A DNA stretch of 64,000 nucleotides from a virus. The position numbers and the translations under genes are program-made. The notes under the pieces were generated by a model, which saw only the letters and a list, made by a program, of their open reading frames with translations, had not been told where the DNA came from and searched no databases. Within the stretch, counting starts at the first letter, position 1; each line of letters starts with the position of its first letter. The stretch covers positions 1-64,000 of the IMG/VR virus record IMGVR_UViG_3300032236_001530; one strand, given 5' to 3'. Positions 7,309 to 61,298 of this stretch are shown here, piece after piece.

Positions 7309-7378
7309 ATTAATTTATCAATTTGTAATTCGTTTTAATCTGTTTTAAAGTCTTTTGCATAATTATTTCTTTTTCTTA

Positions 7379-7726
7379 TTATTTTTTTACTACTTTGAAT
7401 AGTGCTTTTTCAATTGAATAACCATTATTAATAAAATATTTTAAACTATCTACATTACAATGTGCATAAATAGTTTTCTCAGAATCTTTTATTTTAGAGT
7501 CACGATAGTTCCAAAGAAGTTTATAAATACCTTTTTCGCGATGCTCTTTTTTAACAAAAGCATGGCATAAGTATATCACAGATGGGTGTTCTACATACGA
7601 AACAATACCTACTAATTCTTCTTTAATAAAACAACCATAGTATGTTGCAAATTCATCTAGTAGGTCAGGTTTAATCTCAGAGAATTCCTGATATACTTCT
7701 TTGTATGTTATTTTTTTTATCTCCAT
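7379..7726 (-). CDS. GNAT-family acetyltransferase (start revised to MEIKK)
   Basis: AFVKKEHREKGIYKLL acetyl-CoA motif A. Confidence 0.75.
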   Translation of the reverse strand: MEIKKITYKEVYQEFSEIKPDLLDEFATYYGCFIKEELVGIVSYVEHPSVIYLCHAFVKKEHREKGIYKLLWNYRDSKIKDSEKTIYAHCNVDSLKYFINNGYSIEKALFKVVKK

Positions 7727-7763
7727 GTTGCAAAAATAAGGAATTAATTTAATAATATAAGGA

Positions 7764-58519: not shown

Positions 58520-58552
58520 AAAAAAGCCTCAGATTTCTCTGAGGCTTTTTTT
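58520..58552. terminator. Bidirectional intrinsic terminator
   Basis: aaaaagcctcag-atttct-ctgaggcttttt; same core as 31692. Confidence 0.85.
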
Positions 58553-59156
58553 ATTTAAAATAACCAAGTTCTTTTAATGATAAATAAGCAAAATAAACAC
58601 CAAATATACCCATAATAAGACTCATTGTATATACCGCATATACCACAATTAAGGCTGAGAATGATACCGATAACCAAGAAGCAATTCTTCTATTTTTATA
58701 TCGATTTTTAGAAAGATTTGCTATACTTCTAACAATCTGACCACCATCCATTGGATATATTGGTAAAATATTAAATATAAATAAAAACAAATTAATATTA
58801 TACATATCATTAACAAATTCATGTATTGGTCCAACCGGACAATAAGGCTCTATAAAATAACACAATAAAGAAAGAATTAGTGTACTTATAGGACCAGCCG
58901 CTGTAATTGGAATTGAATCCCTGTCGTGCATATTTGAATCTATTGCAGCAGCACCAGAAATCATATCAATTGTGATTCCATAAACTTTATAACCTTTTTG
59001 ATTAGCCATCCAAGCATGACCCAATTCATGTATTAGAACTGAAACAAAGACCGCGCCGACTGCAATTGGTGGTAGCATTAAAAATAATAGGAAGAACCAA
59101 ATACTAACTGATACTGGTGCTCCTCGGAAATTAAATAATTTAAACGATTGTTTCAT
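58551..59156 (-). CDS. Site-2 protease (peptidase M50)
   Basis: HELGH, AAGP, FNILPIYPMDGG. Confidence 0.92.
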   Translation of the reverse strand: MKQSFKLFNFRGAPVSVSIWFFLLFLMLPPIAVGAVFVSVLIHELGHAWMANQKGYKVYGITIDMISGAAAIDSNMHDRDSIPITAAGPISTLILSLLCYFIEPYCPVGPIHEFVNDMYNINLFLFIFNILPIYPMDGGQIVRSIANLSKNRYKNRRIASWLSVSFSALIVVYAVYTMSLIMGIFGVYFAYLSLKELGYFK

Positions 59157-59216: not shown

Positions 59217-59474
59217 ATGAGAATTAAAAGATTTAACGAGGATTGGGAATATACAATTACTGAAAAAGATGATGAGTTAAGTATTTTGGGTAGTGATGCT
59301 TACAAATCACCACATTCAAACTCGGTTGTTAAACTATCAACTACTAAGAATAAAAACGGTAGAACCGAAGCAATCATTATTCAAACTAATCAACACGGAA
59401 CAATTATTAATGACCCAGCTGGAATTGATAAGATAATAGATTGGTTAATGGAATACAAAGATAGAATGTATTAA
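59217..59474 (+). CDS. N-tagged protein, paralog of 4910..5167
   Basis: MRIKRFNED…INDPAGIDK.IDWLMEYKD. Confidence 0.85.
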   Translation: MRIKRFNEDWEYTITEKDDELSILGSDAYKSPHSNSVVKLSTTKNKNGRTEAIIIQTNQHGTIINDPAGIDKIIDWLMEYKDRMY

Positions 59475-59491
59475 TCAAAACTATTTAAAAT

Positions 59492-59520
59492 AAAAAAGAC
59501 CAAGATAAATCTTGGTCTTA
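59492..59520 (-). terminator. Terminator closing the ncRNA cassette
   Basis: aagaccaagat-aa-atcttggtctt with U-tract on minus strand. Confidence 0.75.
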
Positions 59521-59529
59521 AAAATAAAA

Positions 59530-60445
59530 CGCTGAGATTACACGTTCAGTGTGGCATCTTTGACTGGATTATTGTTTCCCAGTTTTATCCACCATCTTTT
59601 GAATGGTATCACCACAGTGACGGTTAGTTTGACTAACCACTTCTTGAGTTACTGAATACTCTCCACTTACTCTGCTTACTCAACCCTCGCAGGCTGATTC
59701 GGGATTCGACCCCCTATAAGTTTTTCGATGAAATCACATCCGCCTTTCGAGCTTATGTGGCTATGGACATCCCATAACTAAGTAGTCACCTTTCTATCAG
59801 TAACTAGGTAACACTTTCGATTTAAGTTTTAATTTTTACGTCAAAAAGTAAATTTTAGTGCTTGTAGATTGTGTCGAAGTAGTGGTCACCTCTCAGCTCC
59901 CAAAGCTTTTGGCCTCAAGAATACTGGACTACTCCGTGTGATGCCTCCATCACAACTCTTTAAGATATCTTCACCACGATTCACCTTACGGCTCACCTAC
60001 ACCCTTGGTAGAGTGATTAGTGTTCATTAACAGCACCACCTGTACAATGAATTGTCTTTCGACTTTGAGACACCTCTCAAGTTGAAACTCGCGATGATAA
60101 TAACTGGTGGGTCACCATTTCTCGCAAAATTTCTACAGGTTATTCTTATTGCTCTTCCGAACTCAACTGAACAATCTACACTTGCCCAGTCACCAATCCA
60201 TTTCCCTACGGAGTTACCCTCAGTACTTCAGGATTAGTGATATCCTGCTTGCTTACTCGACCTTGGTTACCCAAGACGCAAACACAATTCGCAGTTGTGT
60301 TCACTTTATCCCCCTTTCAAGGTTTATTTAACGACTATAAGCGGCCGTTGTCTTCACATTAGCCGAAGCTAATGATTCAACATATCATTCAAGGATTAAT
60401 AGACCTCACTGTCTATCAACTTACGTCTCTTGTGAGAGAACCTTT
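59530..60445 (-). ncRNA. Large structured ncRNA, GOLLD-like (~900 nt)
   Basis: GC-richer, no credible ORF, many GNRA/UUCG hairpins, 10-bp long-range helix (59863-59872 with 60171-60180), downstream of tRNAs; family assignment from size, context and recalled motifs; boundaries approximate. Confidence 0.7.
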
Positions 60446-60447
60446 AA

Positions 60448-60460
60448 TTTCAAAGAACTT
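60448..60460 (-). promoter_or_regulatory. boxA-like antitermination element
   Basis: AAGTTCTTTGAAA, identical copy at 61095-61107. Confidence 0.6.
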
Positions 60461-60514
60461 TATTTATAGTTTTTATTTTTACTTTGTTTAGAAAAATAAA
60501 AAATATTTTTTCTG

Positions 60515-60586
<72 letters not shown>

Positions 60587-60594
60587 ATTTGTAG

Positions 60595-60754
60595 TAGCCC
60601 GTAGAGGATTCGAACACTCTGTTTTCTAACCGAAAAGTTAGACGTCCTAAACATCAGGTCACGACTTGAGAGGATTGGCACCTTCTCATAACCCACCTTG
60701 GAGTCGTTTTGTTGACCGTCTGTTTCTCTTGCGAGTCCAGTAGACGAACGGGCC
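60595..60754 (-). tRNA. tRNA-Glu-like gene with ~85-nt D-loop insert and 8-nt anticodon loop
   Basis: GGCCCGT/ACGGGCT+A; TTCGTCTACTGG…TTTAGGAC; TCTAA-CTTTTCGG-TTAGA; TTCGAATCCTCT. Confidence 0.75.
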
Positions 60755-60813
60755 AAATAATTACCTAACATTGAACTTTTTGCCATATAGGACTTAGTCA
60801 AGTTAGGATTTTG

Positions 60814-60887
60814 TAGCGTGTAGAGGATTCGAACCTCTGTTCTTCGGGCGAAAACCCGACCGTCCTGAGCCGCTAGACGAACACGCC
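60814..60887 (-). tRNA. tRNA-Glu-like gene with 8-nt anticodon loop
   Basis: GGCGTGT/ACACGCT+A; GTC-TAGCGGCTCAG-GAC; GTCGG-GTTTTCGC-CCGAA; AGAGG-TTCGAAT-CCTCT. Confidence 0.8.
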
Positions 60888-60904
60888 ATTTGTTTTTTGT
60901 TTCA

Positions 60905-61298
60905 CAAAGATAAGAAGAATTTTTTAATCTACCAAATCTTTTTTCAATTTTTTTTATCTCGATTTAGTTGTTTACCTCCTTTCTGCCTGTAATCGGGAGG
61001 ATTACTGTATAATCAGGCTATTAACTTCTAAACCGATTTTGTTTTACAAAGATAAGGAGACTTTTTCATTTCACCAAATCTTTTTTTATTTTTTTTTCAA
61101 AGAACTTATCAGACGTTTCTGATTTGTTTTACAAAGATAAGGACACTTTTTTAATCTACCAAATCTTTTTCAAAAAAAGGGTTATGATTTTATCCTTCGT
61201 GATGGGGAGCGCTTATCATAATTAAGTTTTGCGTATTATACCAACACCCTTTGTTTCAATTGTGAATACAAAGATAGTATATTATTTTTAATTACAAA
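60905..61298 (-). promoter_or_regulatory. Four tandem Bacteroidota consensus promoters
   Basis: TATCTTTG at 60905, 61047, 61132, 61269, each with TTTG 20, 20, 20 and 18 nt upstream. Confidence 0.85.
61095..61123 (-). promoter_or_regulatory. boxB-like hairpin followed by boxA-like element
   Basis: ATCAGA-AACG-TCTGAT immediately before AAGTTCTTTGAAA. Confidence 0.55.

What the first reader, a model, noticed from the sequence alone, without database searches (positions are those of the whole stretch)
59530..60445. ~900-nt GOLLD-like structured RNA
Seen: raised GC, hairpins such as CATTAGC-TTCG-GCTAATG, CTTGG-GTAA-CCAAG, GTC-GAAA-GAC, and a 10-bp helix spanning ~300 nt. Known: GOLLD RNAs are ~800-nt RNAs of unknown function often next to tRNAs in phages. 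The family assignment is from memory and context, not a search.
Basis: partly seen in the sequence, partly recalled or inferred. Interest (0 to 1): 0.7.

Follow-up and report, generated by a model that had tools for sequence, protein, structure and literature searches.

The report
Phage GOLLD RNA with rRNA-style leader
The flagged stretch is a genuine, complete copy of GOLLD, a known giant phage RNA that builds protein-free cages. It is therefore an ordinary member of a known family, here set in a gene-free cassette laid out like a bacterial ribosomal-RNA operon.

Summary
Window 59529-59936 on the minus strand matches Rfam GOLLD (RF02032) over the full model at 269.8 bits (threshold 150). That model covers only the 3' half of the RNA.

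The other half, up to about 60400, is a 5' domain shared with about 100 of 121 phage contigs fetched. On 70 aligned full-length copies:
- 94.9% of pair cells are standard pairs, against 38-43% when the partners are slid.
- 154 of 224 pairs change on both sides.

All three quoted hairpins and the 10-bp helix spanning 298 nt are present. The core of that helix covaries. The cage-forming contacts published for GOLLD env-38 are kept in a local variant: the L20-J13/15 kissing pair and the self-complementary L21a loop.

The gene sits in a roughly 1.8-kb non-coding cassette on the minus strand:
- four Bacteroidota-type promoters,
- a hairpin plus GTTCTTTGA,
- three tRNA or tRNA-like genes,
- a second GTTCTTTGA,
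- GOLLD,
- a terminator.

GTTCTTTGA is the boxA word found before the 16S and 23S genes of the Bacteroidota genomes sampled. It precedes 61 of 68 related GOLLD loci.

This scan has already noted GOLLD with a boxA leader on many other genomes. Verdict: a new member of a known kind. Its function is still unknown.

The parts
59529..59936 (-). GOLLD 3' domain (the universally conserved half)
   Evidence: Rfam RF02032, 269.8 bits, full model, not truncated. Helices 24-39 covary.
59937..60400 (-). GOLLD 5' domain. The start is approximate: ATTAATCC at 60400-60393 aligns with the TTATCC that follows boxA in relatives.
   Evidence: blastn finds it in about 100 of 121 loci. Helices 3-23 of alignment A2 covary.
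59863..59872 (-). 3' arm of the long-range helix, lying in the junction after the first 3'-domain hairpin. It pairs with 60171-60180, a hairpin loop of the 5' domain.
   Evidence: Pair I4. The core is 96.9% paired and covaries.
59822..59862 (-). A/U-rich variable linker (junction J13/15), with no tRNA embedded here
   Evidence: It aligns to the unpaired, poorly conserved model positions of RF02032. Its length varies across A2.
59817..59820 (-). UCGA in junction J13/15, partner of the L20 loop UCGA at 59747-59750 (kissing pair; bridge B7 in env-38)
   Evidence: Columns 778-779 with 852-853 are 98.6% paired: G-C 43, C-G 26. The window has U-A and C-G.
59701..59714 (-). L21a-equivalent hairpin with a self-complementary UCGA loop
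   Evidence: The window clade has GUCGAA where most relatives have CCGCAAGG. This matches the GC/CG switch reported for bridge B8 (PMC12286853).
59681..59696 (-). P21b-equivalent hairpin, present in env-38 and absent in the S. agalactiae GOLLD
   Evidence: Matched in the covariance-model alignment. Loop variants are listed. The comparison with S. agalactiae comes from the review PMC12990946.
59486..59519 (-). Intrinsic terminator: a 10-bp stem and then a U run, 10 nt after the GOLLD 3' end
   Evidence: Terminator scan.
60450..60458 (-). boxA-like word GTTCTTTGA between tRNA-Met and GOLLD ('spacer' boxA)
   Evidence: Exact match. The same word precedes 61 of 68 related GOLLD loci. It also sits in Bacteroidota 16S leaders and 16S-23S spacers.
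60514..60586 (-). tRNA-Met (CAU), directly upstream of GOLLD
   Evidence: ARAGORN and Rfam, 62.9 bits.
60595..60757 (-). tRNA-like gene with an insert of about 95 nt in the D-arm region
   Evidence: Read from the sequence. The fold gives a cloverleaf but z is only -0.9. It is not called by ARAGORN or Rfam.
60813..60887 (-). tRNA-Glu-like gene whose anticodon loop has 6 or 8 nt (UUUUCG)
   Evidence: ARAGORN calls it 'tRNA-???' and Rfam tRNA scores 47.1 bits.
61097..61123 (-). Leader hairpin ATCAGA-AACG-TCTGAT (61123-61108) followed by boxA GTTCTTTGA (61105-61097)
   Evidence: Sequence and exact match. Relatives place the same hairpin plus boxA unit directly before GOLLD, and the stem covaries.
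60905..61276 (-). Four tandem promoter-like sites of Bacteroidota type. The -7 box TATCTTTG lies at 61269-61276, 61132-61139, 61047-61054 and 60905-60912, each with TTTG about 20 nt upstream.
   Evidence: Pattern matches and sequence. In relatives TAnnTTTG sits 34-36 nt before boxA in 35 of 53 distinct leaders.

Best explanation
The element is a GOLLD RNA gene of about 870 nt on the minus strand (about 60400 to 59529). It has the env-38-like architecture and lies in a large freshwater phage whose host is a Bacteroidota bacterium.

**Shown**
- Family membership.
- A conserved, covarying 5' domain and 3' domain.
- A covarying long-range helix that joins the two domains.
- Conservation of the loop contacts that bridge subunits in the solved cage.
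- A gene-free cassette with host-type promoters, two copies of the host phylum's rRNA boxA word, tRNA genes and a terminator.

**Inferred**
1. Host RNA polymerase starts at the tandem promoters.
2. boxA in the nascent RNA recruits NusB/S10. The resulting rRNA-type complex resists termination and lets the long untranslated, highly structured transcript be completed and folded.
3. RNase P and RNase Z release the tRNAs, leaving GOLLD.
4. GOLLD copies self-assemble into a closed RNA-only cage, probably a 14-mer as for env-38, through the L20-J13/15, L21a and L21b contacts.

What the cage does is not known. The leading published idea is enclosure or sequestration of translation components such as tRNAs or ribosomes during lytic growth.
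For: **Membership and structure**
- RF02032 scores 269.8 bits against a cut-off of 150, over the full model.
- The 5' domain is shared with about 100 of 121 viral-contig loci.
- On 70 sequences, 94.9% of pair cells are standard pairs against 38-43% when slid. 154 of 224 pairs change on both sides, and 0 of 500 shuffles reach the observed values.
- The tertiary pairs are 97.3% paired and covary.
- The L21a loop switches between GC and CG as published.
- P21b is present, as in the 14-mer env-38.

**Context**
- The record is a 155-kb virus record with a tail fibre gene.
- tRNA-Met lies directly upstream, as for env-38.
- A terminator follows 10 nt after the 3' end.

**boxA and promoters**
- An exact GTTCTTTGA lies upstream of 61 of 68 homologues. 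Background expectation is 0.05 per interval.
- The same word is the commonest 9-mer in the 16S leaders of the Bacteroidota genomes sampled. It is exact in 21 of 25 16S-23S spacers.
- It differs by one base from the B. subtilis boxA-like word and by one from the gamma-proteobacterial consensus.
- Bacteroidota-type -33/-7 promoters are present here and in the relatives.

**Expression**
- Contigs 99-100% identical over 111-235 nt occur in four metatranscriptome libraries from four studies.
Against: - No strand-specific reads or mapped ends exist. The RNA-library evidence comes from assembled contigs, which cannot show strand, ends or level and could include DNA carry-over.
- The mature 5' end is not fixed.
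- Oligomer formation was not tested for this sequence.
- boxA function is inferred from sequence identity and position only.
- The one mycobacterial GOLLD locus examined has no such word within 7 kb upstream, so the leader is a clade feature and not a family feature.
- In print, a Lactobacillus brevis prophage GOLLD was dispensable for phage production.
Confidence: 0.85

Rival explanations
1. It is another class of large structured RNA rather than GOLLD: ROOL, a group I or II intron, RNase P, or an rRNA fragment.
For: It is large, GC-enriched and hairpin-rich, and it lies next to tRNAs. ROOL shares these traits.
Against: Only GOLLD and tRNA models match at gathering score across the whole window. 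At E up to 5 the only addition is a sub-threshold DapZ match over the terminator.
Confidence: 0.01
2. The stretch encodes small proteins on the plus strand, and the apparent structure is incidental.
For: Open frames of 41-74 aa exist at 59869-60362 on the plus strand.
Against: - None of these frames has a Pfam match above threshold.
- Substitutions among 70 homologues are compensatory within helices.
- The minus strand folds far better than the plus strand.
Confidence: 0.01
3. It is a genuine GOLLD, but GTTCTTTGA is not an antitermination signal. It would instead be part of the RNA's own fold (for example paired with the conserved CAAAGA near the 3' end) or a phage-specific promoter element.
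For: - The word is invariant, so no covariation can decide the matter.
- A complementary CAAAGA exists in the 3' domain.
- The boxA next to GOLLD in this window lacks the usual hairpin and promoter just upstream.
Against: - The identical word sits in the 16S leaders and 16S-23S spacers of the host phylum.
- A second copy lies upstream of the tRNAs, 640 nt from GOLLD, in the canonical order of promoter, hairpin and boxA.
- In relatives it lies 34-36 nt downstream of a -7 box, hence inside the transcript.
Confidence: 0.2
4. It is a genuine GOLLD that acts mainly as a decoy: a strong rRNA-operon mimic that draws Nus factors, S10/S4 or ribosomes away from the host, with cage formation secondary.
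For: - The layout is rRNA-operon-like, with four promoters and two boxA words.
- Depth in RNA libraries is very high.
- The cryo-EM paper cites pull-down work in which ribosomes bind GOLLD.
Against: No direct evidence. The conserved inter-subunit contacts argue that the assembly itself is under selection.
Confidence: 0.1

Closest known systems
GOLLD RNA (Rfam RF02032), in particular env-38 GOLLD (833 nt, D7 14-mer cage; Kretsch et al. 2025, PMC12286853)
   Same: - Full covariance-model match.
- Two-domain build with an A/U-rich linker.
- L20-J13/15 kissing pair and self-complementary L21a.
- P21b present.
- tRNA-Met directly upstream.
- Aquatic phage origin.
   Different: - The kissing contacts use a clade-specific UCGA variant, which could give 4 bp instead of 2.
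- There are two extra small hairpins between boxA and the RNA body.
- Oligomer state was not tested here.
Streptococcus agalactiae GOLLD (700 nt, dodecamer; review PMC12990946)
   Same: The same family and the same conserved 3' domain.
   Different: The S. agalactiae RNA lacks P21b and several 5' helices. The window RNA has P21b and is about 170 nt longer, so it resembles env-38 more closely.
Bacterial rrn operon control regions (tandem promoters, leader hairpin plus boxA, spacer tRNAs, spacer boxA)
   Same: - Stacked host-type promoters.
- A hairpin followed by the host phylum's boxA word.
- tRNA genes, and then a second boxA before the large structured RNA.
- A terminator at the end.
   Different: - The cargo is a phage RNA, not rRNA.
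- No boxC was identified.
- Binding of Nus factors was not tested.
ROOL RNA
   Same: A large phage RNA near tRNAs that forms RNA-only cages.
   Different: Its sequence and fold are unrelated. No Rfam match was found here.

Membership tests
GOLLD (RF02032) | Covariance-model score at or above the curated gathering score, over the whole model | tested here: met
   269.8 bits against 150, model positions 1-416 of 416, no truncation.
GOLLD (RF02032) | Conserved 3'-domain helices maintained by compensatory change | tested here: met
   Helices 24-39 are 91-100% paired, and most pairs change on both sides.
GOLLD (RF02032) | Total size of about 800 nt or more, with a separate and less conserved 5' domain and a variable linker | tested here: met
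   About 870 nt. The 5' domain is shared with about 100 of 121 loci and covaries. The linker lies at 59822-59862.
GOLLD (RF02032) | L20-J13/15 kissing interaction | tested here: met
   98.6% paired, with G-C 43 and C-G 26. The window pairs UCGA with UCGA.
GOLLD (RF02032) | Self-complementary L21a loop (GC or CG) | tested here: met
   The window has GUCGAA where most relatives have CGCAAG. The mapping onto env-38 numbering is my inference: Rfam model position plus 420.
GOLLD (RF02032) | Phage or prophage context, near tRNA genes | tested here: met
   Virus record with a tail fibre gene. Three tRNA or tRNA-like genes lie upstream.
GOLLD (RF02032) | Homo-oligomeric RNA-only cage | not testable with these tools
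   This needs mass photometry or cryo-EM of the transcript.
GOLLD (RF02032) | Expressed as a stable RNA | tested here: inconclusive
   Near-identical contigs occur in four metatranscriptome libraries, but contigs show neither strand nor ends.
ROOL, group I/II introns, RNase P | Match to the family's covariance model | tested here: not met
   No match at gathering score or at E up to 5.
rrn-type boxA leader | The boxA word of the host lineage's rRNA operons, on the transcribed strand downstream of a promoter | tested here: met
   The word here and upstream of homologues. Bacteroidota 16S leaders and 16S-23S spacers. Promoters and position in the transcript.
rrn-type boxA leader | NusB/S10 binding and resistance to termination | not testable with these tools
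   A biochemical or reporter assay is needed.

The most novel reading that the evidence does not exclude
The whole 1.8-kb cassette is a phage copy of an rRNA operon's control logic: stacked promoters, leader hairpin plus boxA, tRNAs, spacer boxA, large RNA, terminator. On this reading GOLLD and the phage tRNAs are made by the host's Nus-factor antitermination and RNA-chaperone complex. That complex may be needed for correct co-transcriptional folding and cage assembly. I found no paper in the held library that links GOLLD to boxA, though this scan has noted the link repeatedly on other phage genomes.
Probability: 0.55. Interest if true: 0.5.

Novelty: new member of a known kind. Interest (0 to 1): 0.3.

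Why it matters
GOLLD's function is a long-standing open question, and cages were solved only in 2025. This copy adds no new class. It does offer:
- a well-delimited natural variant of the inter-subunit contacts (UCGA in place of GC or GG/CC), which could serve in compensatory-mutation tests of cage assembly;
- a clear example of the rRNA-operon-like way in which Bacteroidota phages express GOLLD together with tRNAs.

The promoter type and the boxA word also point to a Bacteroidota host for an uncultured phage.

Tried and rejected
- **Coverage gaps in RNA libraries.** RNA-library contigs gave no cover on 59400-59501 or 60369-60470. Several contigs from two studies end at 60343/60344. Contigs cannot show ends, and strain variation at the adjacent variable hairpin can break assemblies. 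I draw no 5' end from this.
- **Motif in the literature.** Literal searches for the boxA word found only unrelated primer sequences.
- **Raw pattern counts.** Counts of the word in two bacterial genomes were uninformative.
- **boxA tracking the host phylum.** Only 1 of 121 genomes sampled from the family of the Mycobacterium record has GOLLD. That locus, inside a tRNA array, has no boxA-like word within 7 kb upstream. The test could not be made, and the leader is not universal to GOLLD.
- **Bacterial genomes with this GOLLD type.** The scan found only 5 contigs: a Mycobacterium isolate and four metagenome bins. This is too few to name a host.
- **A 5'-3' closing helix.** A pairing of the conserved UUAUCC after boxA with GGAUAA in the 3' domain is possible, but both sides are invariant (helices 1-2). 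I cannot tell.
- **DapZ match.** The match at 59488-59628 (22 bits against 56) is sub-threshold and overlaps the terminator.
- **Open frames.** The frames overlapping the RNA have no family match above threshold.
- **The interrupted tRNA-like gene.** Its fold is no better than shuffles.

Full report
**Observation**

The flagged span is richer in G+C than its surroundings: 0.38-0.43 against 0.23-0.31.
- CATTAGC-TTCG-GCTAATG at 60347-60364
- CTTGG-GTAA-CCAAG at 60262-60275
- GTC-GAAA-GAC at 60054-60063

The "10-bp helix spanning ~300 nt" is the perfect inverted repeat 60171-60180 with 59863-59872, with 298 nt between the arms. The minus strand folds to -268.1 kcal/mol (z -5.8). The plus strand folds to -216.4 (z -4.1).

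**Identity**

A scan of the whole window against Rfam gives three matches at gathering score. They are GOLLD (RF02032) at 59529-59936 on the minus strand and two tRNAs. The GOLLD match scores 269.8 bits against a cut-off of 150, E 8e-76, over model positions 1-416 of 416. A permissive scan of 59400-61100 adds only a sub-threshold DapZ match over the terminator. So ROOL, introns and RNase P are excluded. The window belongs to a 155-kb virus record with one GOLLD copy and a collagen-like tail fibre gene.

**The other half**

The Rfam model covers only the conserved 3' domain.
- blastn finds two uncultured phage genomes of 634 and 642 kb that align at 76-79% over 59532-60346.
- A motif scan of IMG/VR returned at least 119 loci.
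- About 100 of the 121 loci also share the 5' half.
- The 69 distinct full-length homologues are 833-919 nt as extracted.

I aligned them with the window (A2) and counted pairs on an RNAalifold structure.
- There are 224 pairs in 39 helices.
- 94.9% of cells are standard pairs, against 38-43% when partners are slid by 1-3 columns.
- 154 pairs change on both sides, and no shuffle of 500 reaches the observed values.

The 5'-domain helices (columns 72-633) behave like those of the 3' domain. Open frames on the plus strand have no family match above threshold.

**Tertiary and quaternary contacts**

Its 6-bp core is 96.9% paired and switches G-C to A-U in 41 against 24 sequences.

The published env-38 structure is a D7 14-mer. 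Its subunits are bridged by an L20-J13/15 kissing pair and by symmetric L21a and L21b loops, among other contacts (PMC12286853).
- By position (Rfam model position plus 420), the L20-J13/15 pair falls at columns 778-779 with 852-853. It is 98.6% paired, with G-C 43 and C-G 26.
- The window and its closest relatives carry UCGA on both sides (59817-59820 and 59747-59750), which could give 4 bp.
- The L21a-equivalent loop reads GUCGAA here and CCGCAAGG in most relatives. This is the GC/CG switch the paper reports.
- P21b is present. It is absent from the S. agalactiae dodecamer and present in env-38.

I therefore expect an env-38-like cage. This is an inference.

**How it is expressed**

A terminator (59519-59496 plus a U run) follows the 3' end. 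tRNA-Met lies 114 nt upstream of the RNA body, as for env-38.

A 9-mer, GTTCTTTGA, lies at 60450-60458 and again at 61097-61105. Both copies are on the minus strand, and there are only three exact copies in the 64 kb.
- The word is exact in 61 of 68 distinct homologue loci, 20-170 nt upstream of the RNA body on the GOLLD strand. Background expectation, even allowing one mismatch, is 0.05 per interval.
- I drew 16S genes with flanks from 22 genomes of the phylum that holds a Saprospiraceae bin, which is Bacteroidota. There the word is the commonest 9-mer upstream of 16S, typically 78-210 nt before it. It is exact in 21 of 25 16S-23S spacers.
- It differs by one base from the B. subtilis boxA-like consensus (PMC13753749). 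It also differs by one base from the gamma-proteobacterial consensus GYTCTTTAANA (PMC5725501).

In relatives the usual order is:
1. TTGACA-like box
2. about 19 nt
3. TAnnTTTG
4. a short covarying hairpin
5. boxA
6. GOLLD

The -7 box lies 34-36 nt before boxA in 35 of 53 distinct leaders. That the TAnnTTTG/TTTG promoter is typical of Bacteroidota is general knowledge and was not tested here.

The window has four such promoters: -7 boxes at 61269-76, 61132-39, 61047-54 and 60905-12. The second is followed by the hairpin ATCAGA-AACG-TCTGAT and boxA. Three tRNA or tRNA-like genes then intervene before the second boxA and GOLLD. This recalls the arrangement of spacer tRNAs and spacer boxA in rRNA operons.

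No canonical promoter lies between tRNA-Met and GOLLD, so co-transcription with the tRNAs is likely.

The leader is a clade feature. The one mycobacterial GOLLD locus examined sits in a tRNA array, has a tRNA in its linker, and has no boxA-like word within 7 kb upstream.

**Expression evidence**

The stretch occurs in freshwater, lake, estuary and marine metagenomes. In four metatranscriptome libraries from four studies, assembled contigs 99-100% identical over 111-235 nt lie across 59530-60347. Contigs cannot show strand, ends or level, so this is consistent with expression but does not prove it.

**Comparison and novelty**

This is a member of GOLLD by every sequence-level criterion I could test. 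It is closest in build to env-38.

Papers in the held library that mention both GOLLD and antitermination do not link the two. This scan has, however, recorded GOLLD with a boxA leader on many other genomes: 352 notes hold both words. The element is therefore ordinary, with a modestly interesting expression context.

**Function**

Function remains unknown in print. A Lactobacillus brevis prophage GOLLD accumulates during lytic growth but is dispensable. The cage is proposed to enclose tRNAs, ribosomes or other cargo.

Noticed in passing
window 60813-60887 (-) and 60595-60757 (-): Two tRNA-Glu-like genes share an anticodon loop UUUUCG of 6 nt, or 8 nt if the closing pair opens. ARAGORN calls the first 'tRNA-???'. 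The second carries an insert of about 95 nt in the D-arm region and is not called at all. The related huge phages carry similar odd tRNAs beside GOLLD (L002 901-988, L003 2337-2410).
   Followed up: partly
window 60601-60681: One metatranscriptome contig (run X16, depth 132) matches this part of the interrupted tRNA-like gene with no differences. It has 18-20 unlike letters at both ends, so a relative with other flanks carries the same piece.
   Followed up: no
window 60980-61040 (-): Between the third and fourth promoter lies a G+C-rich inverted repeat (CCTCCCGATTACAGG ... GGAGG) of unknown role. It has no boxA after it.
   Followed up: no
L123 (Mycobacterium sp. contig), reverse strand 7317-7746: A mycobacterial GOLLD 3' domain inside a tRNA array has a tRNA-Gln gene within its linker. 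This matches the published embedded-tRNA arrangement.
   Followed up: partly
window 59456-59463 (-): A further TATCTTTG box on the minus strand lies inside the plus-strand frame 59217-59474. It is downstream of the GOLLD terminator and upstream of the minus-strand gene 58551-59156, and may be that gene's promoter.
   Followed up: no
window 60426-60439 and 60398-60417 (-): Two small hairpins (TCTCT-CACA-AGAGA and GATAGAC-AGTGAG-GTCTATT) lie between the second boxA and the GOLLD body. Most relatives have only about 10 nt there.
   Followed up: partly
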